From NCBI GenBank assembly GCA_000004985.1, contig GG738913.1: 64,000 nt of DNA; one strand, 5' to 3'. This stretch comes from Naegleria gruberi. Its lineage: Eukaryota. How positions within the stretch are numbered: position 1 is the stretch's first letter; each line of letters starts with the position of its first letter. The notes under the pieces are model-generated. The model saw only the letters and a program-made list of their open reading frames with translations, was not told the DNA's origin and did no database searches. Made by a program: the position numbers and the translations under genes. This document shows positions 16,078 to 50,732 of the stretch, one piece after another.

Positions 16078-19000
16078 ATGACAGAATCACCACATGCATC
16101 ATTGAGTTCATTGGCTCGTCCAGTAACCTTCAATCTTGCTACTGCAACAGCAAACACTTCACACAGTGGCACTAATTTGAGGCCAGCCCTCAAGATTTAT
16201 TCTAATTATGAAACGACAGCATCTACTCATTCAGGAGATGATGAAGATGCAGTCTCTGCTCAACCAACATCTGTGGAGGAGGGTTCAACTGCTGATAAGA
16301 TCTCCTCTAATCAATTCACTGAGGAATACATTGTTCCATCACTTAAATCGATAAGAACACATCCATGGGATGATTTACCACATGTTTCGAGTTTATTAAT
16401 CTTTGGTATCATTCAACCAATACAATTTATTGCACTTTCTTTCATTCCCATTGATCAGTGGGGTTCCATCTCACGATATATCATAGATTATGGCATCAAG
16501 AGCATGTATACATTCGGGTTACACTTACTGCCCTACGAAGGATCAGCAGCCTTTCTCTTCATCTTTCTGCTTTTGGAAATGTTATGTGGAATAGCTCTTT
16601 ATTTGTCCAAAGAATCTATAGGCAAAGATGCCAAGCTTTGGAAATTAATGCCAAAGATATATACTTACATGACCTTTCTGTGCACTGTATTGTACCTCCC
16701 AATAACGAGTATTTATTCAACCTTCTGGTCATGTGATTATGTCCACGGAAAGAAGGAAGTTCAATCTGATATTACATCAACAATAACGACCAATTATTAT
16801 TTGAAAGTTTACCCAGATGTGGAGTGTTGGGATACTCCTAACCTTGTGTTTTCAATCTTTTCCATGATTGGACTGATTTTTCACATTGTGGCAATTCCAG
16901 TTTTGTTCACATTGACGGTGGCCAGTCCTTCCATTATTTTAGTTCCAACAAAGATAAGGACTGCATGGTGGCACAGAGTCATCAAGAAGGCATTCTTCAA
17001 TACACTGCGTCCTATTGTTCCTGTGGCTGTGTCCATAATGAGTGGATTTTATATTGTGTTTCAACAGATGGTACCCTCGTACACCGAGTTTTCATTCCTC
17101 TATCCAAGTGTAATGATAGCAATAGCCATAGCATCAGCTGGAATAATAATATACACGCTTCCTTATCATCGCCCTAAAGAAAACAGCTTTCAGTTCGCTG
17201 TAAACTTGGCAAAACTAGGGCCAAGTTCAGTAATGCTCATTTGTTCACTTCAAAATACAATTTCGGATGTCAATCACATCAGTGGAACGCTTTACCAATG
17301 GGAAGCTGGTTTAATTTATCTGGGAACTTCTCTAGCTTCTTGCCTTACTATTTTCCTGTTTGCCTTTTTTGGATGTCAAGCTTATCAGAAAATTTACATT
17401 GAAAAATTGGCAAAACAATTGAATGAGAAGATTTCGGAAAATTCTGGTGCCTTTTCGAATGATTTATTGGAAGATATTGGTGAAACTAATATGGGAAGAG
17501 TTGCACAATTCGCCTTAAATGTCGATGAGAAGGCAATTTCCAAAGTTGACATTGAACTGTTGGTAATTTCTAAAAAGATTATTACCGAAATGAAACGAAA
17601 CAAATTGACACCAACGGATACTTTCTTTGCAAGCTCACTTTCCTGCTTGGTTATTAAATTATTCAAGGAAAAGGATCCAAGATATGGAATCATGTATTCT
17701 TTACAATTACTTTCAGGTCAATTGAAAAGAAGAATCAATATTTGGGATCGTTTAGTTATTTCTTTACAAAAACATGAGAAAGATGTTTTGAAGAAACGTG
17801 AAGAAATCAAGCCAGGTTCAAGAAAAGCCGAAGAGATTGATAAGAAAATATCACAACTCTACAAGAAGCAAACTCAGCTTTCTAATTTGCATAGAAATTA
17901 TTGGAAACTTGTTTTGAATGAGAATAGCGATGATTCGAATGCCATTCTTCAAGTTTCTGATGAATTGTACATTTTGCAAAATGAAACTAGAAGCATGTTT
18001 GAAGAACTCTTCTCCCAACACTCAACCAGTGTCACAGTTTTAAGAAACTATTCACGTTTCGCTGAAAAATTCCTATTCCAACCTGAACTTGCAGAAGATT
18101 TACAAGCTGCTGTTTTGGAAGAGGAAGAAGAAAACAATAGAAAGAAGCAAGCATTCAAGGGTGGAAGAAGAGGAAGTAGAGCAGTACCTGGTTTCCAACA
18201 AGAAACCATTGATTTGAGTAAATTTGACGATTTGGACGAACTGCCAGAGGAAGCCGAATGTTTAGAAGAAGAGAATAGAAAACAAAAGGAAGGAAATAAG
18301 AATTTGATCAACAAGCATCCAGATTTCACATGGTTATTGATTGTTATTTTGATTATTCCATGCTATGTCATTTTGGGAATCACCGGAGGATTAATAGCAG
18401 AGATTATCCAAGGAACTTCCACAAAAGGAAGTTCTACCAAAGGTTTTGAATCCAAAGTTTGGATGTATTATGAATTATGTGATGCTGCAAATGTTCCTTT
18501 CTATGTCCTTGTAGACTATAGAGCTTTACAAAAGTTGAAACTCTTCTCTGGAAACACTGCATACATTACCAAATTAGAAAAAGATCACAAGGAGAGATTT
18601 TCCTCGTATAGTCAAAGAATGAAGAGTATGATGTTGGATTATTCATCAAGTACTGACAATTTAATCAGTGCTGTGGTCAAGGGCTATCAGCAAACCTACT
18701 ATGAAGTTTACATTCCAAAAGCAGTTTCTAATGCCTCATCATTTCAAGAAGGAACCAAGAAGAAAGTGACCTTATCCGAAATCTACTCCATGATGGCTGT
18801 TCAATTGGAAAATATCGTTCAACAAGATGATAGTATGAGTTTGAAAACAATTGAAAACTTTCCATTCATGTTCTTTTGGGAAAATCGAGAAATTATGCCA
18901 ACAATAATTTCCAATTTTTGTTCTACAATTATTGAAGATCACAGAAATTTGTTAATTGACCAATTGAGAGATTTCATTTTGGGTATGTCAATAGCCATGG

Positions 19001-21467
19001 CGAGCTTTATGATGGTAGCTTTTGGTATCTTTGGTGTCATTATTTACAAATTTAGAGATCGTCAACGTTTAATCAATTTATTCAAGAAATTGCCAAAGGA
19101 TGAAGTTGGACGAATCTATCAAGAATTGAAGGCTGGATGCTCCAACGATAAGCACTCACTTTCCAATGATAAGAAACAATTTATTCTCACTCGATTCTTA
19201 AGAAATCCAGTTTATGCCGTTCCATCTCTTCTCATGCTTTCATTTGCTATTGGCGGAATTGCCTTCTCTGTCTTTATTTACGATTCCACTAATAACATGA
19301 ATCTACAGTATAGTTCCATGTTGAAATTGAGAAATTCTGTTGATATCCAAGTTGATTACCATAAGGGTTTGTTCAATTTGGTCGAGTTGATTAGTGGAGA
19401 TAGTTCACTACCAACAAATAGTTCACTTGTTTATAATGAAGTGACGAATAGTATGAGAGGATTGGTAGATAACTTTTTAGTTTTCACAAGAGGAGATAGT
19501 CAGAAAGGTTACAACCCAATCAGAAGTTTCAGCACAGATATTGAAATACTCATGATTTCGAATACTTGTTCCAATAATTTTACTTCTATCAATAGAACTA
19601 TTGGATCAAATACTACTTCAACAACATTGCCAGCTTCATCTAAAACATGGAATTCTAACTTTACACTCTCTCAAAATTTGGATTTCTTCTCTTGTCTTTC
19701 GATTGAAGACCTAATGTCATATATTTTATCTGGAATGGAACAATTCAAGGAAGAATCTTTCAAGAATATTCGTACTTCAGGCTATTTTATTGAAACCTTC
19801 TTCAAGGATCATGTTTCCTTGAGTTTATCCTTCAGAGCAAAGGTCGACAAGGTTTTACTCGTTCTAGTATCTGTCATTGATAACATTGTGTCAATTACTC
19901 CAAGTTTGACAGCTTGTTTAATGATTGTTGTCTTGTGTATGCTCATTAATTACATTGTATTTACTTCATGGAAGGTCTACACATCTGAAATGACCCAACT
20001 TCGTCACATGTTTCATTTCATTTCTTGGGAAACAATCGAAAGCAACGAAATCTTCCTAAACTATATAATGAACTATGAATTAGTCAGAAAAAAGAAAGGT
20101 TCAAGAATTCATCCTGGAGATGAAGGTGCAGATAGTGATAGTACCACCATGCTTAAGAAAGTTTTGGATAGTTGTGTTGATGGAGCTGTTATTTTCAATC
20201 AGGAAGGAATTGTGGAAAATATTAATCAAGTTGCCTTGTCAATGTTTGGAATTAGATCTCAATCTGATGTTGTAGGAACTGAATTTTATGGACTTTTCCA
20301 ATCTAAAGATGTCATTGCCAAGACAATTAGTGACATTTCCAAGTCAGCTAATTCTCATGGTGAAATTCTTGAAGTTGAAGCTAAAAGATCTCAAAATATG
20401 CTCAATTCCAAGACATTCCCTGTAAGACTGAATTTATGTGTTGCATTTTCTGGTGGAAAGAGCAAAAAGGTCACATTTGCTGGTATTTTAAGTGATGTAA
20501 CATCAGAGAAGAAATCTCTTGAATTGCTAAATGTGGAAAAGAAAAAGTCAGAAGACCTGTTGAAGAGTATCTTCCCAGAAGCTGTTGCTGCTCGTTTAAA
20601 GAAAGGAGATACCTTCATTGCTGAGAAGTTTGATGATATTACTTGTTTCTTCTCAGATATGGTTGGTTTTACCAAAATGAGTAGCACTTTGCAACCAACT
20701 GAACTAGTAGAAATGTTGAACGATTTAGTGAATGGTTTTGATGAAGTGTGTACAAAGTATAATTTGGAAAAGATTAAGACTATTGGTGATGCTTATTTTG
20801 CAGCTGGGTAGGTTTTCTTCTTTTTGGAATATTTAAATTATTTATTTAACAATTAAATAGTGGATTGCATGGTCAACAGAGTGATCACCCTGAAAGAGTT
20901 TTAAGATTTTCAATTGATGTTTTTGGACTATTGCACAGATATAATATTACCAGAAATAGAAGTGTTGACAATTCTATTAATTTGCGAATTGGTATAAATA
21001 CTGGAAGTGTTGTCGGTGGTGTTATTGGTAAAAAGAAATTTGCCTACGTGAGTTTTCAATTTTTTTCAATGTTTATTTACAATAATGTTAATTATTTTAA
21101 TTTAATATTAAACAAATAGGATTTATGGGGAGATGCAGTCAATACAGCCTCAAGAATGGAATCAACTTCATTCCCAGGTCGTATTCAAGTTTCCAGAACA
21201 ACTTACGAAAGAATTCACGATCTAGTTCTTTACGATTTGGATCAAAGATTAAATCCTAATGGAAAGGGAATTATGGTGGAATTTGAGGAGAAACGAGTTG
21301 AAGTGAAAGGAAAGGGATTGATGCAAACCTATGTTCTTTTGGAAAAGTTCCATGAAAGAGCATTGTTTGAACATTTGGCAATGCATATTGATCATTCTCA
21401 AGACTCAGCATTGGTTCCATCTGTTGCACTTTCTAACCAATCATTATCAGATAAACATTCAGATTAG
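16078..21467 (+). CDS. polytopic membrane PAS-domain class III adenylate/guanylate cyclase; join(16078..20807,20861..21047,21120..21467)
   Basis: About 1754 aa. Three clusters of TM helices, a coiled-coil-like middle, a PAS-like segment (VLDSCVDGAVIFNQEGIVENINQVALSMFGIRS...) and a cyclase domain (FSDMVGFTKMS ... KIKTIGDAYFAAG | GLHGQQSDHPERVL ... RIGINTGSVVGGVIGKKKFAY | DLWGDAVNTASRMEST). The canonical DxWGDxVNxASRMES motif is recovered only after removing a 72-nt intron. Confidence 0.85.
20808..20860 (+). other. spliceosomal intron (53 nt, GTAGGT...TAG)
   Basis: Phase-2 junction in the cyclase domain. It removes the in-frame TAG. Confidence 0.7.
21048..21119 (+). other. spliceosomal intron (72 nt, GTGAGT...TAG)
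   Basis: Joins ...KKKFAY to DLWGDAVNTASRMES. Confidence 0.8.
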
Positions 21468-26657: not shown

Positions 26658-27515
26658 TCAAAAATAAAACTCCTTCTCATCAATTCTATTATAACTAACA
26701 TCCAGTATTGTTAATTGTTTCATTTTCGTTAAATATTTGACTCCATTTGCTCCAATACTATTGTTAGAAATATCAAGTTTAGTTAATTGTTCAAGTTGAG
26801 TGAGATGTTCAACTCCCTTCTCTTCAATCATATTATTATGAATATCAAGAGTTCTTAATTGTTTCATTTCTCCAATAAATTTAACACCCTCTTCGAATAT
26901 ACTATTATTACTAATATTGAGTTCTGTTAAGTATTCCAAGTTACTAATAGCTTTTGCTCCTTGTTGTCCAATAAGATTTCCAGAAATATTGAGAATTGTT
27001 AAATGTTTCAATTTGCTAATGTGCTTGGCTCCATAAACACCAATAGTATTGTGAGAAATATTGAGATTTGTCAACTGTGGAGCCAATTCTCCAATTAACT
27101 TTGCTTGACTGAATGTAAATAAATTAACCGAAACATCAAGTTGAGTCAAATGTTTCATCAATCCAAACAATCGACAATCAAATAGTTCAAAAGCAATAGT
27201 CCCAATTCTCACTTTCAGATTTTCAATATTTTGTAAAAATTGACCTTGCATTTTCGAATCACTGCCACAAACTAATGAAAATTTCAATCTTTCCGAAATG
27301 ACATTCAACCACTGTTTTGAAACCAAAGCACAATTCATCACCATAAATATAAAATCATTCCGATGATAATTTAAAATTTCATAAATTACATCATCAGAGA
27401 ATATTTCAAATGGTGAGAGTTTTGTCTTTTTTGCTTCTTGTTGAGATGAATGGGAATTGTTTTCTGATATTAAAATATCGGCAGATGTAATGTCTTCTCT
27501 TATTCGTTTGTTCAT
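26658..27515 (-). CDS. F-box-like / LRR protein, paralog B
   Basis: ATG at 27515 (MNKRIRED). FIFMVMNCALVSKQWLNVISERLKFSL is almost identical to the motif in 13881.. and 41848... RNI-type LRRs follow. Confidence 0.65.
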   Translation of the reverse strand: MNKRIREDITSADILISENNSHSSQQEAKKTKLSPFEIFSDDVIYEILNYHRNDFIFMVMNCALVSKQWLNVISERLKFSLVCGSDSKMQGQFLQNIENLKVRIGTIAFELFDCRLFGLMKHLTQLDVSVNLFTFSQAKLIGELAPQLTNLNISHNTIGVYGAKHISKLKHLTILNISGNLIGQQGAKAISNLEYLTELNISNNSIFEEGVKFIGEMKQLRTLDIHNNMIEEKGVEHLTQLEQLTKLDISNNSIGANGVKYLTKMKQLTILDVSYNRIDEKEFYF

Positions 27516-27632
27516 TTTTTTGTTTTTTAAATTAAGATTAAAATCTTCAGTTAAATAGATTGATTACAATGACAGAGAGTGTTCAATTTACTTCTGTCAC
27601 TTATTTTGAACACGAATGTGAAAGAAATTAAA

Positions 27633-28290
27633 TTACTCTTCTAATTCTTCTAATTCTTCTAATTCACAACTCCACATTATGATGTTGTCTTTCAATATTT
27701 GTAAAAGGAGTATGGCTTCCCTATACCATTCATCACTTAAATAATCGACTTCAGGAATTGCCTTATCAAATTCTGATTGAGCCATTTCAATTGCCTTTTT
27801 CTTATCTTTCAAAACATCGCTGTAATATACAACAAGTGAAATGATCAAACTCAATCTAGTTGGATCCACAATTGAGAGACTTTTGATTGTTTCTATACCT
27901 GATTCATATGAGTTCAAACATTTTTCTTTCAATAATTCATCTTTGGCGGATTCTGGGTCAACAGTAAGAACGTGTCTATAGAAATCTCCTTTGAGTTGTG
28001 CATAGAAAACCAATTCTTGATCAGTCAATCCTTTTACTTTCAAAATTCTGTCAATCATCTCAATCAACTGTTCAGCAAGTTGATGAATTTCATTTAAAAC
28101 TTTCCTGGTAAACATGTTTGATACGTCCGAGGGATCATATTGATGAAGCTACATTATAAACAGCTCTCTTTTTCTTCATTGTCTCTGTAAAGGCCAACTT
28201 TAACAATTTTCTTTCCTCTTGTGAAGGAATAAATTCTCCCGATGATGCAAGAATTAATTCATCAAATGACTTGTACAATACAGCAGCCAT
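27633..28290 (-). CDS. 14-3-3 protein homolog; N-terminal half (28141..28290) and C-terminal half (27633..28112) cannot be joined by a canonical splice (possible pseudogene or sequence error)
   Basis: N-terminal MAAVLYKSFDELILASSGEFIPSQEERKLLKLAFTETMKKKRAVYNVASSI matches 14-3-3 helices 1-3. C-terminal ...KGDFYRHVLTV...DPTRLSLIISLVVYYSDVLKDKKKAIEMAQSEFDKAIPEVDYLSDEWYREAILLLQILKDNIIMWS matches helices 5-9. Between them lie an in-frame TGA (28135..28137) and a +1 frame change. Confidence 0.55.
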
Positions 28291-28640
28291 TTCTATTCAA
28301 CAAAACAACAATCATGTTAATCCATTATTCTCTTGTTCTTCCTTACTTCATACTTTTCAGAATCACGACAAATTAAGGCCCAAATTACATAATCTTCTCT
28401 TGAAGAGAGAGTTGGTACATCCCTTCCTTCTTGTTGTTGTTTCATTTTTTTCAAAGTTCATCCTTAACAAACAACTAAGCTACAATTAACACGAATGAAC
28501 TTTTTTTACTAAGGGAGAAATATAAAAGACTTATAAACCATTACTTTACATTTTCTTCTTGTGGAAGGAAAAAGGAAGTTGGATAGTAACAAAGGAATGT
28601 GAAAATGGAACTTGAACTTGAATGAAAAAATTGAAAAAAA

Positions 28641-29753
28641 ATGACAGATGTTCAATCTTTGATTTTGGATATTGGATCGGGATCGATAAAGGCTGGATTA
28701 CATTTTCATGATGAACCTTCATTAATTATTTCATCAATGATTGGAAGAGTGAAATATAAACCTGTCATGATGACAAATGTCAAATTGGGATATGTTGGAA
28801 ATGAAGCAATGAGGAGGAGAGGGATATTGGATATTTCGTATCCGATCAGGAGAGGAATTGTTCAAGATTGGGATGATTTGGAATTATTATTTCAATATAT
28901 ATTCGAAAGTGAATTAAAGGTGGATCCACACGAGTTTTCACTTTTTCTTTCTGATTCTCTTCTCAATCCAGATTCTAACCGAGAGAAAATGGTAGAATTA
29001 CTATTCGAAACCTTTGGCATTCCAGGGCTTTATTTCGAATATCAACCCTTGCTATCTCTATATTCGTCTGGAAGAACTTGCGGAGCTGTTTTACATTCCG
29101 GAGAGGGACTTTCTCAAATAGTTTCAATTTCTAATGGATATGTTCTTCCCCAAACTATTCGTCGACTAAATTTGGGAGGTTTTGATCTGACGGAATATTC
29201 AAGAAAATTACTAAATACGAAAGGTCATTGTTTCAAAATGAAAGCAGATTTTGAAATTGTGAGAGAATTGAAAGAGAAATGTGCAAGAATTTCACTTTCT
29301 AACGATGATTTGCAGCATATAGATTCATCTGAATTATTTTACGAATTACCTGATGGAAATCGAATAGAAATTGGAAACGAAAGATTTGAAATAGGAGAAG
29401 CCTTATTCAATCCACAATGCCTAGGAATAGATTCCATTGGAATTGACCAATTACTAATTGACTCAATACAGAAATGTGAAATTGACACTCAAAGAGACAT
29501 GTTTGGAAACATTATTCTTGATGGAGGGAATTCACGAATTCCAAACTATTCCACTCGAATAGTGAATCAAGTTGAGAAGAGTGCCTCACCATCAATGAAA
29601 GTAAGGCATGTCAACATGTCAAATGAATACTCTGAATGGATTGGAGCTGCCTTCATGATTCTCCATTCTCAAATGAATTACATGTGGTATTGCAGAGAAC
29701 ATTATGATGAATTTGGAACAAATTTTATTCATAAACATGGAGAAACATTTTAA
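28641..29753 (+). CDS. actin-family protein (divergent actin / actin-related protein)
   Basis: 370 aa. DIGSGSIKAG (the actin DNGSG motif), YVGNEAMRRRGIL, YPIRRGIVQDWDDLE, LNPDSNREKMVELLFETF, ILDGGNSRIPN. Intronless. Confidence 0.8.
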   Translation: MTDVQSLILDIGSGSIKAGLHFHDEPSLIISSMIGRVKYKPVMMTNVKLGYVGNEAMRRRGILDISYPIRRGIVQDWDDLELLFQYIFESELKVDPHEFSLFLSDSLLNPDSNREKMVELLFETFGIPGLYFEYQPLLSLYSSGRTCGAVLHSGEGLSQIVSISNGYVLPQTIRRLNLGGFDLTEYSRKLLNTKGHCFKMKADFEIVRELKEKCARISLSNDDLQHIDSSELFYELPDGNRIEIGNERFEIGEALFNPQCLGIDSIGIDQLLIDSIQKCEIDTQRDMFGNIILDGGNSRIPNYSTRIVNQVEKSASPSMKVRHVNMSNEYSEWIGAAFMILHSQMNYMWYCREHYDEFGTNFIHKHGETF

Positions 29754-33411: not shown

Positions 33412-35043
33412 CTATTGAATATCAATATAGGCATATTTCTTCTTCTTTCTTAAACAGAGCCAGAATCCAAGTGCAGTAAGCAAAACAGCCACCAGAACGA
33501 ATGCAGCAGCCAAACAAACTCCAATAATTACTGGAACTCTCCAATAAGGTTGAATAGAAGAGGAGAATTTGTAAGTTGAAATAGTATCATTTGAGGTTGT
33601 GTCAAAGAGGAATACCACTTGTTGGACATCACTTCCAATTTCTTTAGAAACTGCATCGCTGGAGCAGAATTTGATTGAATTGGATCCAACTTGAGCAATT
33701 TGCTTTTCAGTATAGCTTGATATTGTTGGAAGGGTTGGATTGTTAATATTGGACTTTTGTTGTAAAGCATAAATAGCTAATGGGCTACCAGAAACGGTGC
33801 CATCAAATGTAATGCAACTGTCATCGTGAGTTTGTGCAATCAAGTAAACTGGACTCGCAGAAGTAATAGATCCAGATAATTTGGTTCCATCAGCAAGTGT
33901 TGAAATGAATGGTTTTGGTGGAATTGTCTTTTTGATATTACCATAAACAATAATGAGAGAATTGTTAAAAAGGAGATTGTTTGACATATCACAAACCATC
34001 TGTCCATCATTATCAGATGATGGAATAATTGGTGAAATTACAGTTCCAAATTGATATCCACTTCCAATAGTACTTCCACAAGTTATTGAATTTGCTTGAA
34101 TTTTCACTTCGTTTCCATTAATATCCTTCATGTTATCAAATTGATACCAGAATGAGAATGTGCTTTCAAGTTTCTCCAAATAGTGAGCATCATAAAACAT
34201 GTAAGCTCTCAAAACAACAAGCTCATCTTGACTATTTTGATATCTAGTGTCAGCAATATCTTTTGGATTAACATTTGATGCAGGAGCCAGCTCAAATTGA
34301 GGAGATGCTGTTCCATCACAGATTGGTTGTTGTTTTGGGAATGCAAGAGTAATCACTCTATTCCATTGATTACCAGTTTGTAATGAGTAACTGGATGGAT
34401 AGGAAACATCAATCCACTCATTCAATGAAATTTCCTTTGGTTTTGGAGTATCGTTAGGTGAAACATCCAGATAAAATTCATTTCCACCTTCAGACAATGA
34501 AACTGCCTTTGCAAGATTCAATTCAAAACTCAATTTCCTGCAATTTCTTGTCAATTTTCCATATTCATCTCCTTGAACTGAAAGAACATGTTCCGCTTCG
34601 CCACTACCAATAATAGTTACATTCATTTGACTCACATCCCTATTGAAAATTCCATCCAATGTCATTATATCCACAAAAATCTTTTCTTGTCCAGTGAAAT
34701 TTGCATCAAATTTGAAATGTCTCAAATATGAAAATTTAGAAATTGAAAATGTAAAATTTGTATCATGATCGGTAGTAGTAGTAGGATATTCATAAAACAC
34801 TTTCATCAAATAAAAGGAAGGAAGTGGTTGATTGTAAACAAATGTAGCAGATTCCATTGTATTATTATTCAGAGGTAAACTATTCTGCTGATCAATTTGA
34901 TAGATCTTTCCCATCTCGGCAGCAATCTCCTCTCCGTTCGCCACCACCACCACAAACTGATGTGTAAAACTCAAAGCTAAAACCAAGACGCAAATCAACA
35001 AGTGGTGGGTACCAATTGCAATTCGGTGATGATGTTTACACAT
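33412..35043 (-). CDS. hypothetical type I membrane glycoprotein (signal peptide, large ectodomain, C-terminal TM + short basic tail)
   Basis: Probable ATG at 35043 (MCKHHHRIAIGTHHLLICVLVLALSFTHQ). C-terminal TM VPVIIGVCLAAAFVLVAVLLTALGFWLCL followed by RKKKKYAYIDIQ. Many N-x-S/T sites. Confidence 0.5.
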   Translation of the reverse strand: MCKHHHRIAIGTHHLLICVLVLALSFTHQFVVVVANGEEIAAEMGKIYQIDQQNSLPLNNNTMESATFVYNQPLPSFYLMKVFYEYPTTTTDHDTNFTFSISKFSYLRHFKFDANFTGQEKIFVDIMTLDGIFNRDVSQMNVTIIGSGEAEHVLSVQGDEYGKLTRNCRKLSFELNLAKAVSLSEGGNEFYLDVSPNDTPKPKEISLNEWIDVSYPSSYSLQTGNQWNRVITLAFPKQQPICDGTASPQFELAPASNVNPKDIADTRYQNSQDELVVLRAYMFYDAHYLEKLESTFSFWYQFDNMKDINGNEVKIQANSITCGSTIGSGYQFGTVISPIIPSSDNDGQMVCDMSNNLLFNNSLIIVYGNIKKTIPPKPFISTLADGTKLSGSITSASPVYLIAQTHDDSCITFDGTVSGSPLAIYALQQKSNINNPTLPTISSYTEKQIAQVGSNSIKFCSSDAVSKEIGSDVQQVVFLFDTTSNDTISTYKFSSSIQPYWRVPVIIGVCLAAAFVLVAVLLTALGFWLCLRKKKKYAYIDIQ

Positions 35044-35177
35044 TTTTTTTAGATTGTGAAATCTTGCAATTCCGCGTGCTCCTAAAATTAACCCCGCCAT
35101 TAAGGGAGCATTATTCAGAATACTAACTCCTATTAATGGAAGGTAATTGGAAGATCCAACTTTGTACAACAACAATC

Positions 35178-36989
35178 TTATTTATTGTTGTTGTTGTGGA
35201 GAGGAATGCACTGACCGTTGTTGCTTACATTGAGTGTGTTGGAGAGGAGTGGAGTGCCAATCTTGTTGGAAAGTGATGCTTGTGAAATGGAGGTGTGGAT
35301 GTGGGTTCCCTTCACCATTTTGAGAATTACGAAAGTGTCATACTTCTCTGTTGTGGTTTGGTCGCCATCCAATAGTTCAGCAAGTCCATAATATTCTGCT
35401 TCCAATTTGAAAACAGCCCAATCATACATTTTCACGCTCACGTATCCAATTTGTAAGAATTGATAAATTAATTTGAAGAATTTTGATGGTCTATCCACCA
35501 AAAATCTACCCTGTTCATCCATTCCACAATAAGATTCCAATCTATAAATTCTCTTATCAAATCCAGCACGTGCCAAAACTGTTTCGCATACAGTTAATTG
35601 AGTATCTGAAAAGACCAATGTAAAATATCCATCAATCATTCTCTTAGGGCTTGTATTGCCAGTCTTATTGGCTGTTGCTTGTTGCTGCAAATTGTTAGAG
35701 GAAATTGAATTTCTCCTAGACATGGTTGGTATTTGAATCACTGCATTTTGATACTCTTGTGTACTTCTCAATTCTCTCAATCTCTCTACGAATCTTTGAG
35801 GTCTGTCACAAAGGCAAAAGTTGGAAGCAGACAATCTTTCCCAACTTTTCAAATGACTTCTAATGTGAGCATAGTGGAAAAAGTCTGATTTCTTAACTTC
35901 CAAAATCATAATCCACAAACTAGGTACATTGGTTGTTTTTTTGAATTCCAATCGATAATGGATAGCAACTCTTGGAGCTGGTGTAATTTGGAAATTTCTG
36001 ATACAATTGTCAAACATGAGTCTAATCTTGTCTCTTTGTTTTTCAGAGAGTTTCATTCCCATGACAACACCATCATCTCGAACACCAAAAATCAAAGCAC
36101 CTCCATTAGAGTTTAAATAAGCAATCAAATACTCAGTCATTCTTTCTCCTAATTTAGCATAATCTATAACACCTGATTCTGAATTTGTTGAACTAGTAGA
36201 AGTTGCAGTGGTTGTTGGTGAAATTACAAATTGAACATGTGAATGCTCACTCACTGGTGTTTTCTCCAATGAACCAATATTTTCTGCAATGAGCTCCTTT
36301 TCAAGTTTTTGTGATTCCTCCTTATTGGTCGTCTTGAAATTGATATAATCCGAAAAGATTGTCAATTTATAATCAAGTGTATTTCCTTCATCATAATTTA
36401 ATTGTGTTCCAACAGGAAAATCTACATTCTCAATAAAGAACCAATCTTGTTGTTGTTGCTGAGTTTGAATAGAAGGTGATGGTGATACAGTTTTTACAGT
36501 TTTAATATTTAAATTATCGGTATATATAGATAATTTGGAATTTCCTCTCGAACGACCATTATTACCACTATTATCATCATCATCATCATTATTCATATTA
36601 TCACTATTTATATTATTATTATTATTACTATTATTACTATTACTATTTAATATTGTTGTTGTTGTTGTATTATGATGCATGGAAGAGGCTGATGATGGAA
36701 AATCCTTCAGCGATGAAGAAAATGGTGAAGTAATCGATCCAGTCGAAGTATTCGTATGTAAATCATCAATATCCTCATCAAAGCCTACTTTTGTATGATG
36801 ATGAGTAGTAGAAGCACCAACAACACCACTGGGAATATTAGAATTACTATTACTTTCATTGGAAAAGTAGGACCAATTAGAGTTTGTTGTTAAACTCGAA
36901 TGTTGTTCAAAATCTTCATCATCAATAATATCAGAATTGGATGATTTGTTGGTTTTTTCCTGTGGGGAAGTAGGTGGAGATTGTAACAT
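35178..36989 (-). CDS. AlbA_2 (Schlafen-like) + BTB/T1 (KCTD-like) domain protein with N/S/D-rich low-complexity N-terminus
   Basis: 603 aa. AlbA_2-type signature LNSNGGALIFGVRDDGVVMGMKL. C-terminal BTB/T1-like FTLVFSDTQLTVCETVLARAGFDKRIYRL...DEQGRFLVDRPSKFFKLIYQFLQIGYV...LEAEYYGLAELL. Poly-N/D tract encoded by an att/ttg microsatellite. Confidence 0.5.
   Translation of the reverse strand: MLQSPPTSPQEKTNKSSNSDIIDDEDFEQHSSLTTNSNWSYFSNESNSNSNIPSGVVGASTTHHHTKVGFDEDIDDLHTNTSTGSITSPFSSSLKDFPSSASSMHHNTTTTTILNSNSNNSNNNNNINSDNMNNDDDDDNSGNNGRSRGNSKLSIYTDNLNIKTVKTVSPSPSIQTQQQQQDWFFIENVDFPVGTQLNYDEGNTLDYKLTIFSDYINFKTTNKEESQKLEKELIAENIGSLEKTPVSEHSHVQFVISPTTTATSTSSTNSESGVIDYAKLGERMTEYLIAYLNSNGGALIFGVRDDGVVMGMKLSEKQRDKIRLMFDNCIRNFQITPAPRVAIHYRLEFKKTTNVPSLWIMILEVKKSDFFHYAHIRSHLKSWERLSASNFCLCDRPQRFVERLRELRSTQEYQNAVIQIPTMSRRNSISSNNLQQQATANKTGNTSPKRMIDGYFTLVFSDTQLTVCETVLARAGFDKRIYRLESYCGMDEQGRFLVDRPSKFFKLIYQFLQIGYVSVKMYDWAVFKLEAEYYGLAELLDGDQTTTEKYDTFVILKMVKGTHIHTSISQASLSNKIGTPLLSNTLNVSNNGQCIPLHNNNNK
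36611..36675. repeat. (ATT/ACT/GTT)n trinucleotide microsatellite inside the coding region, encoding the N-rich tract
   Basis: tattattattattattactattattactattactatttaatattgttgttgttgttgt, read directly. Confidence 0.7.
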
Positions 36990-37351: not shown

Positions 37352-40267
37352 ATGACCACGTCAGATTTCACACATCAAAAAAAATTAATAGACATGAAGA
37401 GGGGAGGATTGTTTTCGACTATTCCCTCAGTCAATACAAACACCAACAACAATACAACATCATCTTCATCTGCTCTCTATCAAAGATCCTCAATTTCGAA
37501 TAACAATTCGAATAATTTAAATGATAGAATTTCTTCACCTTCCGATAATTCGAATTTTCGACCAATTTCCACTTCTGTTGGTCAACAGCCTTTCAAGTTT
37601 AATCCATCACCAGTTTCGTCTCCAACTTCAACCTTTCCAACAACTAATTTTACTGGAAATCGGTTAAATATTTCCTTGACACATCAAGAACGAAATTCTA
37701 ATAGTAGTGGAGTTTCGTCTGGTGTTTCTTCCTCCTCTTCAATTTTACCACTAGTTTCGAATAACCCTTCTTCCATCAATAGAAAGAATGTCAACATTCC
37801 AATGAATTTTTCTCCAATTAGAGGAGCCAATAGTTTATTCCGAAAGAGTTGGAGAAATTCCAGTGGAGGTTTCTGCTGTAATTTATCCTATTTCGTATTG
37901 GGAATTATTTTCTTCATTTCCTTTCTGACTTTTATTGTTTTTGTTTATTATTCAATGAAAAAATCAAATTCTGCATCAAATTCTTTAAATTCAGGAAATT
38001 CACTTGGAGGAGATGGAATGAATACGAAACATTCCGAATCTACATTGATTCTGTCAACTGTTCAGGATTTTTTCACACGTTTGAGGACTAAGAATGATCA
38101 TAGATTGAAAAATGTGCCACTCGAGGAAGGATACAGTCAATTGTTTGAACACGAAAAGGCAGATCAGGAAACTTTGGAAAGGGCAAGTGACAAGCTCACT
38201 AAAGAAATGAAAGAGGAAATGTTAAAAGTGAAGGAATTTTATAAAAAGACTCCAATCAGTAAGGTATTTGTGGCAGTTGTGAATGATCACTCTCAAGTGA
38301 TGAGTGCTCTGATTGTGGCCAAACAGGAAAGACTTGTGCCATCCCACTTGTCTTTGCCAATTCTTCATGTGGATTCTCATTCAGGTCACAAAATAATTCA
38401 ACACTCAAAGAGTTTGCCAGTTTTGGATTTGAAAAAGAAGAAATCAATTACAGCAATTGAAAAGATGACTGATATCAATAATTTCATTTCCACAAGTCAA
38501 TATTATGATTTATTGGGAGGACACGTTGTTTGGGTTCACAATGATTGGGAAGGATCTCATTTTGCAATGCCAAGAGGTAGACATACAGCAGTTCTTGCCA
38601 AGAGATCCAATGCTAAAAAGGGAAAACCAAAGATTTGCTACAAGAATATGCGTGGAATTTTCTGGGATGGAACTGTCAGTGATTTGACATTTGAAACCAT
38701 GGTAGATGAGAATGGCAAGATTTACAAGAATGAAAAGGCAGTTTGCACAAAATCTGAAAAATTGAAAAAGCAAAAACATGTCAGATGGGATGTTTATTCG
38801 ATGGATCAAATTTCTCGATTGAATCATCAAATTTTCAACAATACTCCATATATTTTACATTTGAATGAGGATTTTTTCACTAGCACAGATCCAACGCTTG
38901 CTAGTTTACTTCCAAGGGATGAATTTGGACACTTGTTTGATATGTTAGCTAATCTCCTCTCTCCAAGTAAGATTTGCTATTCAAAGCCAATTAAAATTCC
39001 AACTAAGGAAGGAGTGGATAAGGTCTGGACCAATGAGGAACACAATAGAGAGTGGATTTCAAAGATTATCGATGAGCTCTTCTTTAAGGGATTAATTTTT
39101 GAAAAGGAGGGTACCAGAGCTCCTAGATATACATTCTATTCACCAGAAGTTTTGGAAATGTGGTGTGGTGGACCAAAAGTAGCTCTGGAAGAATTGAAAA
39201 AGATTAACAAGTTGGTTCTCATCATGTTGGACAATATTCCATTCTATACTCTCTCATTATTGAGATATGAATATGATTTTCCAACTATTCACCAAGTTTG
39301 CAATGTGAACAATTTATTTGGAGTTTGTCCTTCTGTTAGGGTAAGTTTACTTTCTAATAATTTTTCCATTAAAGACTTTTGGAACGTGTAGAGCCCAGCT
39401 CATGAATCAACTGATGTGCAAGTTACCAGAGTTTCAGATTCTTTGAAGAATGTTATCAAGAGAGAAGGTTTACCTGCCTTGATTATTCTTTCCAGAGCTA
39501 ATAGAGAGGGATTCGTCAGTGCTGATAAATTATACAAGATTGAACATTCAGCTCTCAAAGCCATTGAAAAAGGACTCTCTGCTCCAATCTTGCTTCACTA
39601 TTTGGATGGTGCCAAACCACTTTCAGAAGCACAAGAATCAAACAATCAATTGGAACAAGAATATTCCATTTTGCAACACGTTGTCGAGCAAGATATGGAT
39701 GATTTGAGCGTCTATGCACCACTCATGACTGATAGAATTGAAAAATTCAAACAAATGAAGAAATTCATCAAGTACAAGGAACTGAGAGTGATGGAATTAT
39801 TCTATGAAGGTCAAGAATTATTGAAAGAATTTGTCAATCAAGTGGAAGAAAACTTGAGATTTGAAACCCCAATTGTCAAGACTCCATATCAATCTCCAAA
39901 GACTCGTATCAAGATTTGCATCAATATGATTGGTGTTTCCAAATTAATTCCACCTTATTTGAAGTGTGTGATTCAAAGAATGAGACAAGAGAAGAGAATT
40001 AATTTCCTAATCAGTGAAAAATTAGTAGAAACTGCAGGAGAATTCAGACAAATCATCACCTCAGATATTCAAATTGCCAAAATCAGTAATCAAGTGAAGG
40101 AGGACAAGTTTATTTTATTGATGGATATAGGATGTGACAATATTCACAAAGTTTTAGTTCAAACCGAAAGAGGACTCAACAAGTATTTCAGTTCCATGCA
40201 AACCAATGTGGATGGTAAATTAATTCATGACATTATGCAAACTCATTCCAAGAGTTGTAGAAAATAA
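37352..40267 (+). CDS. hypothetical type II (N-in, single TM) membrane protein, 2 exons: join(37352..39340,39392..40267)
   Basis: S/N-rich N-terminus, then TM FVLGIIFFISFLTFIVFVYY, then a large lumenal domain. ORF 1 ends ...GVCPSVR followed by gtaagt. The downstream frame is open from 39392 with no ATG until about 39690, which argues that it is a continuing exon. A 51-nt intron gives phase-0 continuity. Confidence 0.5.
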
Positions 40268-43358: not shown

Positions 43359-46300
43359 ATGTCAGCACTCAAACAAGTTAAAATTGCTGCCTTGTTGCTC
43401 AATCTCTTAATTATTAGTTGGTGTTTGAATGTTTTTGGAGCGATTAATAGGTTTTCTGCAACTCCAAAGATATTCAATTTTGGTGGAGGAAATACAAGTA
43501 GGTTTCTATTGAGCTTTCGAATTGGAAACTAATATCAAAAAGTTGGTGATGGTTCGGATGCTAGTTTAGCTGTTTTGCAATCACCATTATCTCTATTTAC
43601 TGACTCTTATGAAAGTGGAGGTGATTTATTTATTGTAGAATCGAATAGAATAAGAAGAATCTTTTCCTCCAATAATACAATTGTAACCATAGCAGGAAAT
43701 GGATATTCTGGCTATACAGGAGAAGGATATCTTGCTCTTGAATCTAGATTATCCACTCCTAGTTCTGTTTTTGTTAAATCCAATGAAATTTACTTTACCA
43801 CATTGGACAGAATTAGAAAAATTGATTCTAAAGGTTATGTCACAACAATTACAGGAAATGGAATTCAACAATTAGGTCAGAATGGTGTATTTGCCAATAT
43901 TTCTTCGGTAAATATACCTTCCTCCTTGATAGTTTCAGATGAAAATGAAATATTCTTTGCTGACACTTTCAATTATCAAATTAGGAAAATATCTGATGGA
44001 ATTATTTCAACAATTTGTGGAATTGGAGAAAGTGGATATGGTGGAGATGATCCAATATTAGCCGTAGATTCTCCGATTGGATTAGTCACAGGAATGGCTT
44101 TAGATTTTGAAAATCGACTCCTCTATTATGTTGATTATGATAATAGACGAATCAAAATGATTAATCTCAATGATGAAATGCTCTATACACATGTTGGCGC
44201 AGGCTCCTTATTTGATGATAATGCTAATCGAAATGAAACTCAATTATCTTCTCCACACTCAATTGCCTTCTCATCCTATTCGGGTGCTCTCTATTATTCT
44301 GAAATTGCTAGTAATTACTCAGTGATTAGACGAGTTTATCAAGATGTGGTCAATACGGTGGTTGGTTCTGGAAATTCTGGTTTCTCTGCTGATGGATCCT
44401 TTGCTACTATTGCACAAATTAACAAACCAAAAAGTATTTGCATTACCAGTGATGAGGATATCATTTTCATTGACAGTGGAAATAACAGAATACGAAAGGT
44501 GCTTCACTCCAATGAAACTTTGATAACCATTTCTGGACAGAATACTTCCTTCAAAGCACCTTTCACAACTCCCATTCAATACTCTCAATTATACAATCCA
44601 ACGAGGATAAAACTATATGAGAACAAGACAATCATCACCGAATCAACAATTGTAAGACAAGTGGTGAATGGAGTAATTTCAATTGTAGCAGGTGTATATG
44701 GTAGCTTTGGAGTTGCACAAGAAGGTGCTTTGGCAACAAGCTCCTATTTGAGCTTTCCTAGAAGTGCTGCATTAGATCTTAATGGCAATATTCTCATAGC
44801 TGATTTCAATAATGGTAAAATCAAATTAATTACCAATAGCAAATCGTACACCTTTGCTGGAAGTAAGGCGACCTTTGGTCAAGAAAATGTGATTGGAACG
44901 GCCACAAGATTGTATAATGGATGTGGTTTCTCCTACTATAATGGAGAATTCTATTGGAATGATAGTGGAAATTGCAGAGTTCTCAAATTGGGAACTGATG
45001 GAATAGTTAGAAGAATTGCTGGCATAACAGGTATATGTGGCTTTTCAGGGGATGGTGGTTTGGCCACCAATGCTCTAATGGGAGTTTCATGGGGATTGAG
45101 TGTCTCACCAAGTGGTGATATTTATGTTGCTGAATCTATTAATTCTAGAATAAGAAAGATTTCGAATGGTATCATTACAACTGTTGCTGGAACATCAGTG
45201 GCTGGATACAATGGAGATGATATTGCTGCCACAAGTGCAAGCCTTAATGGCCCTCCTGCAGTCTTTGCTACCAGCACTGCATACTATTTGGCTGATGCTG
45301 GAAACCGTAGAGTTAGAAAAGTTTCATACAGCACTGGAATAATTACAACCATTGCTGGAAATGGAGCTAGTGGATCTTCTGAGGAGAATATTAATGCCAC
45401 AAGTGCAATTATTGGTACAAGCTCCCCAAGAGCTCTTTGGGTTAGCAATGACGATTCTGTCTATTATGCAGATGTTTCAAATGGAAAGACAAGAGTTGTA
45501 ACTAATGGAATAGTTTCGACCATCGCTGGAACTGGAGTGTTGGGCTATTCAGGAGATGGTGGTTTGGCAACCAATGCCAATTTTAGATGGATATATGGCT
45601 TGTGGATGGTTGGTTCTGACTTATATATTGCTGACAGTACTAATAATGTTATAAGAAAGCTGTCGAATAATATTGTAACCACAGTGGCAGGAACTGGAAA
45701 TGCTAACTTCAATGGAGATGGTATACCAGCTCTCTCTGCAAATATTAACACTGCCAATCAAGTAATTATTCATCCACAAACATCTGAAATGTTCATTCTC
45801 TCATCAGATAGAATCAGAAAGGTCAACACCAATGGCACCATTTCCACAGTGGTTGGAGGTATTGGTGATGGGGCTCAGGCCATATATGCACTCATTAATC
45901 CAACAGATATTCATGTCACCAATAATGGTACAATCTATCTCACAGATTCATTAAATCATTGCATTAGAATGATTACAAGTGATGGAGTTATTTCACTTGT
46001 TGCTGGTTCTTACTATGGTGGTTTTGGAGGTGATAATGGACCTGCTGCTAACGCTGTTTTGAATAGTCCAGAATCTCTATTTGTAAATTCGAAGGGTGAA
46101 ATTTACGTTTCAGATACAGTCAACCATCGAGTAAGAAAAATTGATTTGAATGGAACCATTACCACAGTTGCTGGGAGTGGTTTGGCTGGTTTCTATGGAG
46201 ATGGTGGATTGGCTACAAATGCTAAATTGAGTTATCCTATGGGAATTTACGTATCCAAAAATGGTGACATTTATATTGCTGATTATGGCAATCATAGAAT

Positions 46301-49300: not shown

Positions 49301-50732
49301 TTCCAGATTCCAATTCCTTAAACATTTGTACAAGCTCTTGTCCGATAATAGATCAGATATGGCAAAGAATGCCAAGATTTTGAAAGTCCTCAAATTGATA
49401 ACCTCTCAGAAAATATTCTTTTCAATTATTGCAATCTTTGCCGTGTTGAATGTTTGTTTCTGGACTCTTTGGGTTGTTCTAGTAAGGACACAAGTCATTG
49501 ATGCCTCTACCTATACCTATATTGTATCATCTTGTTACATTACTTGTATTCTCTTCTTTGGAGCAGTTATTTGCATTGTAGCCATTGCTGATTGGATTAT
49601 TTCCACCAAGAAACACGTAACAGCAGGTCAGGAAAGAAAGAGAAAGACTGTCAGTTTCACCACTCTCAGCTCTGAACCACGAGAATCCATCAAGAAGCGA
49701 CTCTTCTCTCCAAAACAACTCTACGAATGGTTAATTCAAGTTGATGAACCACTCTATTTCCGATTCGAAATGCTCCTCTACATGATTTGCTTTGTCTTCC
49801 AAGTGTTAAATCTTGCCATTGGCTCCTCCAGTCTTTCCTACCGATATGCTGACTTGGATTCATACAAGAAAGCACTTGCTCTCGATGGAATCTCCTTCAT
49901 CTTTGAAGTACTCTATGTGGTGAGTTACTTGTTTGTGTTTGGTGGTTTTGCTCTCTTGATTGCCATATTGTACAAGTACAAGAAGAAGAAACAACATGAT
50001 GAAGCCTCTACTTTTCTCATCAACAAATTGAATGGTGGCAACAATAACAAGGTCGACGAAGGAATCATGAGTGAGGAGATGAGGGATGTGCTAGATAAGA
50101 ACGAAGGCTATCTATTATTCGAAGCCTTCTGTGAGAAGGAATTCTCTCTAGAAAACCTCTACTTGTACTCTGACTTGAAAGCCAATGAAACCATCACCAA
50201 AGGAAGACAATTCACCAACCTAACAACCTTCATGAGATTCATCTTTAATAACTACATCCGAACAGGAAGCACCACAGAAGTGAATATACCAGCCAAGTGT
50301 AGGAATAACTTTTTACTTGTCTATAAGAATGTAGCATCAAGTAGTGAACATATGCAACAACAATTGGGAATTGCTGAGAAGGTGAGTAGGAGTGAGGTGG
50401 AAAGACTCGATAGGAATCTACAGGTGGTTATCAAGAATGATCAAGTAGCTACTTTATCAACTAAAACAACAACTACAACTTCTACTAATGAACAACAACA
50501 ACAAGAAGGAAATATCAAATCTTCATCGCCAGTAGCTGCTGTAGAAAATGTTGATCATGTGGTGGAGGGTGTTGTTTCTGCCTTTGAATTCCTCTACAAG
50601 CAAACATTGGTTAATTTGGGTGATACCTTCTCTCGATTTGTCTTTACGAGTGAATACAAGGAATATTTGGCTTCATTGGAGGCTCAGAAGGTTGTTACGG
50701 TGGAAATTATTGCTGCCTACGGAGATGTTTAA
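43359..50732 (+). CDS. giant secreted multidomain receptor: signal peptide, about 20 NHL repeats, 2 EGF-like modules, S/T/N-rich stalk, GPS/GAIN-like motif, 7TM, cytoplasmic RGS domain; join(43359..43497,43543..50732)
   Basis: Exon 1 MSALKQVKIAALLLNLLIISWCLNVFGA... is joined through a 45-nt GTAGGT..AAAAG intron, phase 1. NHL-type repeats (TIAGTGxxGYSGDGGLATNA...P.G....G..YIAD..N..IRK). EGF-like CSGNGQCVDGSCICNNQTFTGPNC and CSGNGQCVTANNCSCLSGYVGNEC. GPS-like CRYWDETNKIWSDRGCQLSNIDLNAGTVECSCSHTTMFTTF. Seven hydrophobic helices at 48960..49990. RGS signature FEAFCEKEFSLENLYLYSDLKANE. Confidence 0.85.
43498..43542 (+). other. spliceosomal intron (45 nt, GTAGGT...AAAAG) after the signal-peptide exon
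   Basis: ...GGGNTS(I) | GDGSDASLAVLQSP. Phase-1 junction; removes the in-frame TAA. Confidence 0.7.

What the first reader, a model, noticed from the sequence alone, without database searches (positions are those of the whole stretch)
28105..28140. 14-3-3 gene whose two halves cannot be joined by any canonical splice
Positions 28141..28290 (-) encode a convincing 14-3-3 N-terminus (…EERKLLKLAFTETMKKKRAVYNVASSI). Positions 27633..28112 (-) encode helices 5-9 and the acidic ELEELEELEE tail. Between them lie an in-frame TGA (28135..28137) and a +1 frame change inside caggaaag. No GT…AG pair of plausible length restores the frame. Residual similarity continues in the first frame (RIKHVYQE versus the 14-3-3 REYRE region). 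That pattern points to a 1-nt indel plus a nonsense change, or an unconventional junction, rather than a normal intron. 14-3-3 is usually essential, so either another functional copy exists elsewhere or the sequence is wrong here.
Basis: seen in the sequence. Interest (0 to 1): 0.55.

Follow-up and report, generated by a model that had tools for sequence, protein, structure and literature searches.

The report
Broken 14-3-3 gene copy in Naegleria
This is a divergent extra copy of the 14-3-3 gene in the amoeba Naegleria gruberi that carries two one-base frame breaks, so it is most likely a young pseudogene (or a locally mis-sequenced gene), not an example of unusual splicing or recoding.

Summary
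The window is Naegleria gruberi. The locus is annotated only as a 141-aa fragment, NAEGRDRAFT_74377.

The gene is larger and more damaged than described.
- It has an upstream exon (28445..28347, helix 1) and a typical 54-nt GT-AG intron (28346..28293).
- That first junction is also one base out of frame.
- A related environmental gene (L001) has a clean phase-1 intron at the same position. One G therefore appears to be missing at the Naegleria donor.
- The second break needs only one surplus base at about 28135..28140. That base itself creates the TGA. No separate indel in caggaaag is required.

Repairing both bases gives a 252-aa protein. It matches Pfam 14-3-3 end to end and folds as a confident nine-helix 14-3-3 model. 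Frame-restoring GT-AG pairs do exist, but they delete conserved helices and score worse. No RNA structure follows the TGA.

A canonical 14-3-3 epsilon is reported in the Naegleria core genome.

Verdict: an unprocessed pseudogene of a fast-evolving paralogue is most likely, and assembly error is the main rival. Interest is low.

The parts
28347..28445 (-). Exon 1 (ATG at 28445..28443). It encodes MKQQQEGRDVPTLSSREDYVIWALICRDSEKYE, which is 14-3-3 helix 1.
   Evidence: Translation. It aligns to Giardia 14-3-3 TREDYVFMAQLNENAERYDEM. It adds about 13 bits to the family HMM score. Codon-usage log-odds are +0.35 bits per codon in this frame, against -0.8 in the other two.
28293..28346 (-). A 54-nt GT-AG intron (GTAAGG ... 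TTAAC ... TTGTTGTTTTGTTGAATAG). Lesion 1 sits at its edge. Splicing at these sites leaves exon 2 one base out of frame, giving KWLLYCTSHLMN*. The ancestral junction is inferred to be phase 1: GAA G|GT...AG|AA ATG. One G is therefore missing next to 28346.
   Evidence: Sequence and frame arithmetic. The region is non-coding in all three frames. The related gene on L001 has a clean phase-1 GT-AG intron of 52 nt at the same codon position...ERFE G|GTTTGT...ATCAG|AT GTA ATG. Another short intron in the window, 39341..39391 (51 nt, AGG|GTAAGT..GTAG), shows the local intron style.
28138..28292 (-). The middle coding piece: AA + ATG...ATA, reading (E)MAAVLYKSFDELILASSGEFIPSQEERKLLKLAFTETMKKKRAVYNVASSI. 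It covers helices 2-3 and is out of frame with both neighbouring pieces.
   Evidence: Translation. Codon-usage log-odds are +0.42 bits per codon in this frame, against -1.0 and -0.5 in the others. It aligns to the canonical EERNLLSVAYKNV...RIVSSI.
28135..28140 (-). Lesion 2: ATA TGA. The stop is in frame at 28137..28135. Removing any one base of 28137..28135 gives ...SSI-D/Y/C-PSDVSN... with no stop. This is most simply a 1-nt insertion that itself created the TGA.
   Evidence: Skipping 28137 gives 178.2 bits and no stops. Skips further downstream score the same but keep the TGA.
27636..28136 (-). The downstream coding piece (167 codons): DPSDVSNMFTRKVLNEIHQ...MWSCELEELEELEE, covering helices 4-9 and the acidic tail. 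This frame is open from 28148. The annotated 141-aa CDS (NAEGRDRAFT_74377) starts at the internal ATG 28058..28056.
   Evidence: Translation. P0001 is 100% identical over residues 112-252. Codon-usage log-odds are +0.31 bits per codon, against -1.0 in the other frames.
27633..27635 (-). TAA stop codon of the 14-3-3 reading frame.

Best explanation
The locus is an unprocessed pseudogene of a fast-evolving, species-specific 14-3-3 paralogue of Naegleria gruberi. It still contains its intron and was disabled recently.

The ancestral gene had two exons: helix 1, then a 54-nt phase-1 intron, then helices 2-9. It encoded about 252 aa. Two independent one-base lesions now break it.
1. One G has been lost at the exon 1/intron boundary, next to 28346. 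The strong GTAAGG donor and the first AG (28293) should still be used, so the spliced mRNA would run out of frame into a stop after 12 codons.
2. One base has been gained at about 28135..28140, in the turn between helices 3 and 4. It created TGA and pushed the remaining 167 codons into the +1 frame.

Shown here: the frames, both defects, the 14-3-3 identity of all three pieces, the lack of a conservative canonical splice, and the lack of RNA structure after the TGA. The existence of a canonical 14-3-3 elsewhere rests on PMC9928731.

Inferred: that the lesions exist in the organism and are not sequencing errors, and that no full-length protein is made.
For: - Organism and annotation: the only database match is the N. 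gruberi predicted protein EFC37940.1 / NAEGRDRAFT_74377. It is 141 aa and covers only the last 56% of the repaired protein.
- All three pieces are 14-3-3. Pfam PF00244 scores 131.5 bits over profile positions 3-223 of 223. The AF2 model has pLDDT 91 and nine helices. Foldseek gives TM 0.82/0.91 and rmsd 1.8 A to 14-3-3 zeta.
- There are two separate frame defects 210 nt apart.
- The homologous intron on L001 is phase 1 with intact G|GT.
- Canonical GT-AG alternatives remove conserved sequence and score lower: 171.8, 156.4 and 150.3 bits, against 178.2 for the repaired model.
- Each piece shows codon bias only in its 14-3-3 frame. Inactivation, if real, is therefore recent.
- The copy is divergent. 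It is at most 38% identical to anything among 1.84 billion representatives. Two of the four phosphate-contact residues, by zeta numbering recalled from the literature, are replaced: K49 to T and Y128 to H.
- It has no close relative in the protein collections searched, and the one metagenome scan found nothing.
- A canonical 14-3-3 epsilon is in the Naegleria core genome, so losing this copy should be tolerable.
- The other large ORFs I looked at in the window are uninterrupted, and the three ORF-ORF junctions I examined are explained by adjacent genes or by a clean intron. The window is therefore not generally error-ridden.
Against: - No reads, transcripts or second assembly could be consulted, so two base-calling or assembly errors cannot be excluded.
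- Apart from the two indels, there is not one stop codon in 252 codons, and the family's near-invariant residues are kept. An intact, functional gene that was mis-sequenced would look exactly like this.
- The reference strain is thought to be heterozygous or polyploid (my own background knowledge), so another allele may be intact.
Confidence: 0.6

Rival explanations
1. Sequencing or assembly error. The gene is intact and functional in the organism, and the reference sequence has one missing G at the donor and one extra base near ATATGA.
For: Outside the two indels, the ORF has no stops in 252 codons, has coding-type codon bias in all three pieces, folds as a complete 14-3-3 and keeps the family's near-invariant residues. 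Each fault is a single base.
Against: Two independent indel errors within 210 nt would be unusual. The other large ORFs in the window run uninterrupted for up to 2385 codons, and the junctions I checked are clean. Neither site is a long homopolymer: the contexts are GAAG-TAAGG and CAATATGATC. The public gene model could only call the last 141 aa.
Confidence: 0.27
2. A truncated product is the real gene. Translation from an internal Met (ATG at 28115..28113 for 160 aa, or 28058..28056 for the annotated 141 aa) gives a helix 4-9 fragment with some function. The upstream pieces are relics.
For: The public annotation uses exactly this model. The downstream ORF is long and has strong codon bias.
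Against: The fragment lacks helices 1-3. From general 14-3-3 structural knowledge, these form the dimer interface and contribute half of the phosphate-binding groove. No promoter or transcript evidence is available. The codon bias is equally explained by recent inactivation. The fragment alone scores 130 bits against 178 for the repaired protein.
Confidence: 0.07
3. Recoding. A programmed +1 ribosomal frameshift occurs at AUA UGA U, with the stop in the A site and the next codon GAU, as in antizyme UCC UGA U. It would have to be combined with an unconventional 5' splice site (G|UAAGG) or with initiation at the exon-2 Met.
For: The +1 frame is open across the stop, and a shift exactly at UGA U yields a stop-free 14-3-3. 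The resemblance of the site to the antizyme shift site comes from my memory of the literature.
Against: The first junction needs a second, unrelated rescue. After normal splicing the mRNA reads GAA AAA UGG, which is not an X XXY YYZ slippery site. No structured RNA follows the stop: z = +0.70, and 151 of 200 shuffles fold at least as well. No orthologue exists in which conservation of the site could be tested. The related gene on L001 is a continuous ORF at this point. AT-AC or TA-AG 'introns' of 16-40 nt lack U12 motifs and are shorter than the 51-54 nt introns seen locally.
Confidence: 0.03

Closest known systems
Canonical 14-3-3 proteins (Pfam PF00244; for example human 14-3-3 zeta or epsilon, Giardia 14-3-3 in PDB 4f7r/4zq0)
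   Same: The repaired translation matches the full-length profile, has a nine-helix fold (TM 0.82-0.91), has conserved helix 1 (REDYV...KYEEM), EER.LL, SSI, KGD.YR and LLRDN-like motifs, and has an acidic C-terminal tail.
   Different: It is only about 25-30% identical. The loop between helices 3 and 4 is about 11-12 residues shorter, and helix 2 carries a 5-residue insertion. K49 is replaced by T and Y128 by H. The ORF is interrupted twice.
Divergent Naegleria-type 14-3-3-like paralogues (N. gruberi NAEGRDRAFT_34237 = P0010; environmental gene P0014 on contig L001)
   Same: These are the closest relatives, at 38% and 35% identity. They share the (E/S)PIP(S/T)xxER and ILKV/ILKM motifs. The phase-1 intron sits just before the conserved Met (L001). 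Like this gene, P0010 has no close relatives in the databases.
   Different: Both are continuous ORFs across the helix 3/4 turn, and L001 has an intact G|GT donor. This copy has a frame defect at both places.
Unprocessed (duplicated or unitary) pseudogenes
   Same: The locus is homologous to a functional family, retains its intron, carries frame-disrupting single-base indels and a premature stop, and has a functional family member elsewhere.
   Different: It has only two lesions and no other decay. It is therefore very young, polymorphic, or an artefact. No parent copy with high identity exists.
Programmed +1 frameshift sites (antizyme UCC-UGA-U; Euplotes AAA-UAA/UAG)
   Same: A stop codon in the zero frame is followed by an open +1 frame that continues the same protein, and UGA U is the local sequence.
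   Different: There is no downstream structure and no conservation that can be shown. A second frame defect upstream cannot be explained by frameshifting.

Membership tests
14-3-3 (PF00244) | Full-length match to the family profile above the curated cut-off | tested here: met
   The repaired 252-aa translation scores 131.5 bits against a cut-off of 33.2, E 4.4e-38, over profile positions 3-223 of 223. PDB 14-3-3 chains match at E down to 8e-28.
14-3-3 (PF00244) | Nine antiparallel helices forming the cup-shaped fold | tested here: met
   The AF2 model has pLDDT 91, pTM 0.86 and nine helices. Foldseek against 14-3-3 zeta 6yo8_C gives TM 0.82/0.91 and rmsd 1.8 A.
14-3-3 (PF00244) | Phosphate-binding residues K49, R56, R127 and Y128 (zeta numbering, from the literature) | tested here: not met
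   In the alignment to canonical chains, AFTETM aligns with AYKNVI (K49 to T) and DFYRH with DYYRY (Y128 to H). R56 and R127 are kept.
14-3-3 (PF00244) | A continuous, translatable coding sequence | tested here: not met
   There are two frame defects: one at the donor next to 28346, and TGA with a +1 shift at 28135..28140.
Unprocessed pseudogene | Homology to a functional gene family plus disabling lesions, with the intron retained | tested here: met
   Two one-base frame lesions and a 54-nt intron are present. The homologous intron on L001 is intact.
Unprocessed pseudogene | The lesions are real in the genome, and no full-length product is made | not testable with these tools
   No reads, transcripts or alternative N. 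gruberi assemblies were reachable. Exact-protein look-ups found no contigs.
Programmed +1 ribosomal frameshifting | A stimulatory element (structured RNA) next to the shift site | tested here: not met
   The 85 nt after the UGA fold at MFE -11.5 kcal/mol, against a shuffle mean of -13.5, z +0.70.
Programmed +1 ribosomal frameshifting | The shift site is conserved in orthologues, and the rest of the ORF is intact | tested here: not met
   No orthologues were found. The relative on L001 is continuous at this point. A second frame defect lies upstream.
U12-type (AT-AC) or other non-canonical intron at junction 2 | A conserved ATATCC/GTATCC donor, a TCCTTAAC branch site, and a workable length | tested here: not met
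   The AT-AC pairs that restore the frame are 16-37 nt (28140..28125, 28138..28108 and others) and lack these motifs.

The most novel reading that the evidence does not exclude
The DNA sequence is correct and the gene is still expressed as a full-length 14-3-3. This would need an antizyme-like +1 ribosomal frameshift at AUA-UGA-U in the helix 3/4 turn, together with use of a shifted, non-GT 5' splice site (G|UAAGG) at the first junction. It would be the first recoded 14-3-3 and the first programmed frameshift reported in a heterolobosean.
Probability: 0.03. Interest if true: 0.7.

Novelty: new member of a known kind. Interest (0 to 1): 0.13.

Why it matters
The main value is to annotation. NAEGRDRAFT_74377 is listed as a 141-aa 'predicted protein'. 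It is actually the tail of a two-exon, 252-codon 14-3-3 paralogue carrying two frame lesions, and it should be flagged as a pseudogene or a low-quality locus.

It also shows that N. gruberi carries at least two very divergent, orphan 14-3-3-like genes beside the canonical epsilon-type gene. That pattern suggests birth-and-death turnover in this family. It has no wider mechanistic consequence unless the recoding reading, which I put at about 3%, turned out to be true.

Tried and rejected
1. Canonical splicing at junction 2. I listed every GT-AG, GC-AG and AT-AC pair that joins the two frames without a stop. The GT-AG options (85, 94 and 100 nt, among others) all delete conserved helix 3/4 sequence and lose at least 22 bits. 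Rejected.
2. Canonical splicing at junction 1. GT(28346)-AG(28270), 77 nt, is in frame but drops EMAAVLYK, loses 6.4 bits and skips the first AG after a TTAAC branch-like motif. It could at best be a minor cryptic product.
3. TA...AG 'introns' at both junctions (G|TAAGG..AATAG, 53 nt; A|TATGAT..GGAAAG, 40 nt). I judged this a coincidence. L001 has no intron at junction 2, and the second candidate has no pyrimidine tract.
4. A -1 slip or transcriptional slippage at the spliced GAAAAAUGG. It is not a slippery heptamer in the zero frame, and the A-run exists only after splicing.
5. Locating the frameshift by HMM score. The result is flat from 28137 to 28100, so it is uninformative apart from the stop count. 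Codon usage weakly favours the downstream frame immediately after the TGA.
6. Searching for orthologues, transcripts or other copies. None of these found anything closer than 38% identity: the word-indexed protein search, the exhaustive HMMER search, the metagenome scan, exact-protein contig look-ups, a tblastn of the window, a literature search by accession and a search with P0010.
7. Alternative genetic code (TGA as a sense codon, ciliate-like). Long standard-code ORFs across the window and the identification as N. gruberi rule it out. It also would not fix the frame.
8. Other apparently broken genes in the window. The overlaps at 13.8 kb and 35.2 kb are just adjacent genes.

Full report
**What the window is.** The window is AT-rich, with about 33% GC. 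It is densely packed with long standard-code ORFs. A conceptual translation of the locus finds one database protein, 100% identical over its C-terminal 141 residues. That protein is 'predicted protein [Naegleria gruberi]', EFC37940.1 / XP_002670684.1 / NAEGRDRAFT_74377, on a 236-kb contig. The sequence is therefore nuclear DNA of Naegleria gruberi. The public model covers only MIDRIL...ELEELEE, starting at ATG 28058.

**Checking the observation.** On the minus strand, 28290..28138 reads MAAVLYKSFDELILASSGEFIPSQEERKLLKLAFTETMKKKRAVYNVASSI, followed by TGA at 28137..28135. A different frame reads ...LHQYDPSDVSNMFTRKVLNEIHQLAEQ... through to ...MWSCELEELEELEE and TAA at 27635..27633.
- The downstream frame is already open from 28148, straight after a TAG at 28151..28149. 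The frame change therefore need not lie in caggaaag.
- GT-AG pairs that restore the frame do exist, for example 28152..28068 (85 nt) and 28152..28059 (94 nt).
- The downstream piece begins with helix 4, not helix 5.

Upstream, in the same frame as the downstream piece, an ATG at 28445 opens MKQQQEGRDVPTLSSREDYVIWALICRDSEKYE. This is 14-3-3 helix 1. It aligns to Giardia 14-3-3 TREDYVFMAQLNENAERYDEM. It ends at a strong donor, GAA|GTAAGG (28346). The segment that follows is 54 nt, is non-coding in all frames, contains a TTAAC branch-like motif and a T-rich tract, and ends in AATAG at 28293.

A 54-nt intron does not change the frame, yet the next coding piece (AA ATG GCT...) is one base off. Normal splicing would therefore give ...EKYE-KWLLYCTSHLMN*. 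The gene has two frame defects 210 nt apart, and the middle 51 codons are out of frame with both neighbours.

**Evidence for the ancestral structure.** The closest relatives found by an exhaustive HMMER search are only 35-38% identical. One is N. gruberi NAEGRDRAFT_34237 (P0010). The other is P0014, on a 1.4-kb ENA metagenome contig, L001. On L001 the annotated start Met is preceded by ...GAT GAA GCA GAA CGA TTT GAG G|GTTTGT...(52 nt)...ATCAG|AT GTA ATG. This is a clean phase-1 GT-AG intron at exactly the position of junction 1 here. The ancestral junction in this gene is therefore inferred to be GAA G|GTAAGG...AATAG|AA ATG, and one G is missing. L001 has no intron at the position of junction 2.

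**Testing alternative gene models.** I built a family HMM from 79 single-domain hits and scored every model against it.

| Model | Score (bits) |
|---|---|
| Repaired model (G restored, base 28137 skipped), no stops | 178.2 |
| Skipped base moved anywhere from 28137 to 28100 | 176-178.6 |
| In-frame 77-nt GT-AG at junction 1 | 171.8 |
| 85-nt GT-AG at junction 2 | 156.4 |
| Both canonical introns | 150.3 |
| Annotated 141-aa fragment | 130.1 |

Moving the skipped base does not change the score, but only 28137..28135 avoids the TGA. One surplus base at about 28135..28140 (for example ATA GAT becoming ATA TGA T) therefore explains both the stop and the shift. Codon-usage log-odds trained on 18 long ORFs of the window are clearly positive for each piece only in its 14-3-3 frame: +0.35, +0.42 and +0.31 bits per codon, against -0.5 to -1.0 in the other frames. 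They weakly favour the downstream frame directly after the TGA.

**The repaired protein.**
- It matches Pfam 14-3-3 end to end: 131.5 bits, profile positions 3-223 of 223.
- AlphaFold2 gives a confident nine-helix model, with pLDDT 91 and pTM 0.86.
- The model superposes on solved 14-3-3 structures at TM 0.82/0.91 and rmsd 1.8 A.
- Junction 1 falls in the helix 1/2 turn (residues 33/34). Junction 2 falls at the end of helix 3 (residues 84/85), before a four-residue turn.

The protein is very divergent, about 25-30% identical to canonical 14-3-3s. It has a shortened helix 3/4 loop. Two of the four classical phosphate ligands are replaced, K49 by T and Y128 by H, while R56 and R127 are kept.

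**Recoding and unconventional splicing.**
- The 85 nt after the UGA are no more structured than shuffled controls: z +0.70, and 151 of 200 shuffles fold at least as well.
- After normal splicing the first junction reads GAA AAA UGG. This is not a -1 slippery heptamer in frame, and the A-run does not exist in the DNA, so transcriptional slippage is excluded.
- AT-AC pairs that restore the frame are 16-37 nt and lack U12 motifs.
- A TA...AG reading of both junctions is formally possible. I regard it as a coincidence.

A programmed-frameshift reading would still need a separate rescue of junction 1, so I rate it at about 3%.

**Other copies and context.**
- The window holds no second 14-3-3.
- A canonical 14-3-3 epsilon homologue, 73% identical to human YWHAE, is listed in the Naegleria core genome by PMC9928731. 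The essentiality argument therefore does not apply to this copy.
- Neither this gene nor P0010 has close relatives anywhere in the protein collections. A metagenome scan also found nothing.
- The neighbours look like ordinary intact genes: an LRR protein (26658..27515, minus strand), an actin-family protein (28641..29753, plus strand, divergent from the 14-3-3 start) and an NmrA-like protein.
- Apparent ORF overlaps elsewhere in the window are adjacent genes or clean introns. The window is therefore not generally of poor quality.

**Verdict.**

| Reading | Probability |
|---|---|
| Young unprocessed pseudogene of a fast-evolving, lineage-specific 14-3-3 paralogue, with one base lost at the intron donor and one gained in the helix 3/4 turn | about 0.6 |
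| Both indels are errors of the reference sequence and the gene is intact | about 0.27 |
| A truncated helix 4-9 product is the real gene | about 0.07 |
| Recoding | about 0.03 |

The assembly-error rival remains open because the ORF is otherwise flawless. Reads or cDNA across 28090..28360 would decide between the first two at once. I could not reach any such data with these tools. The finding is real but ordinary, and its main use is to correct an annotation.

Noticed in passing
L001:1-736 (ENA metagenome contig NODE_20199, sample ERZ12289978): This environmental contig carries a divergent 14-3-3-like gene (P0014, 35% identical to the repaired protein). Its annotated start Met is preceded by an unannotated exon-1 end (DEAERFE) and a 52-nt phase-1 GT-AG intron at 23..74. 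The public model therefore lacks helix 1. The organism is probably a heterolobosean relative, but I did not identify it.
   Followed up: partly
not in the window (N. gruberi NAEGRDRAFT_34237 = P0010, on a 461,873-bp contig): This is a second divergent 14-3-3-like gene of N. gruberi, 227 aa in the public model. The model starts at the conserved Met, so it may also lack an upstream helix-1 exon. It has no close relatives in 5.8 billion proteins. Its DNA could not be fetched.
   Followed up: partly
window 28641..29753 (+): This 370-aa actin-family ORF (Pfam Actin, 294 bits, profile positions 3-408 of 410) is transcribed divergently from the 14-3-3 locus. Only 195 nt separate the two ATGs. It is shorter than the Pfam Actin profile (410 positions), so it may be an actin-related protein.
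   Followed up: no
window 16078..20811 (+): This 1577-aa ORF has TPR and PAS domains and ends inside an adenylate/guanylate cyclase catalytic domain (profile positions 3-64 of 183). The gene must continue past an intron after 20811.
   Followed up: no
window 39341..39391 (+): A clean candidate intron of 51 nt (AGG|GTAAGT...GTAG) joins ORFs 37352..39391 and 39416..40267 in frame. I used it only as an example of local intron style.
   Followed up: partly
window 35178..36989 (-): This 603-aa ORF combines a Schlafen AlbA_2 domain with a BTB_2 domain, which seems an unusual pairing. The next ORF downstream (33412..35175, minus strand) has no Pfam match and appears to be a separate gene starting about 80 nt after the stop.
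   Followed up: no
window 27516..27632: Only 117 nt separate the 14-3-3 stop codon from the ATG of the next gene on the same strand (LRR protein, 26658..27515). This illustrates how short the intergenic regions are here.
   Followed up: no
window 43575..50732 (+): This is a very long uninterrupted ORF of 2385 codons. I did not examine it.
   Followed up: no
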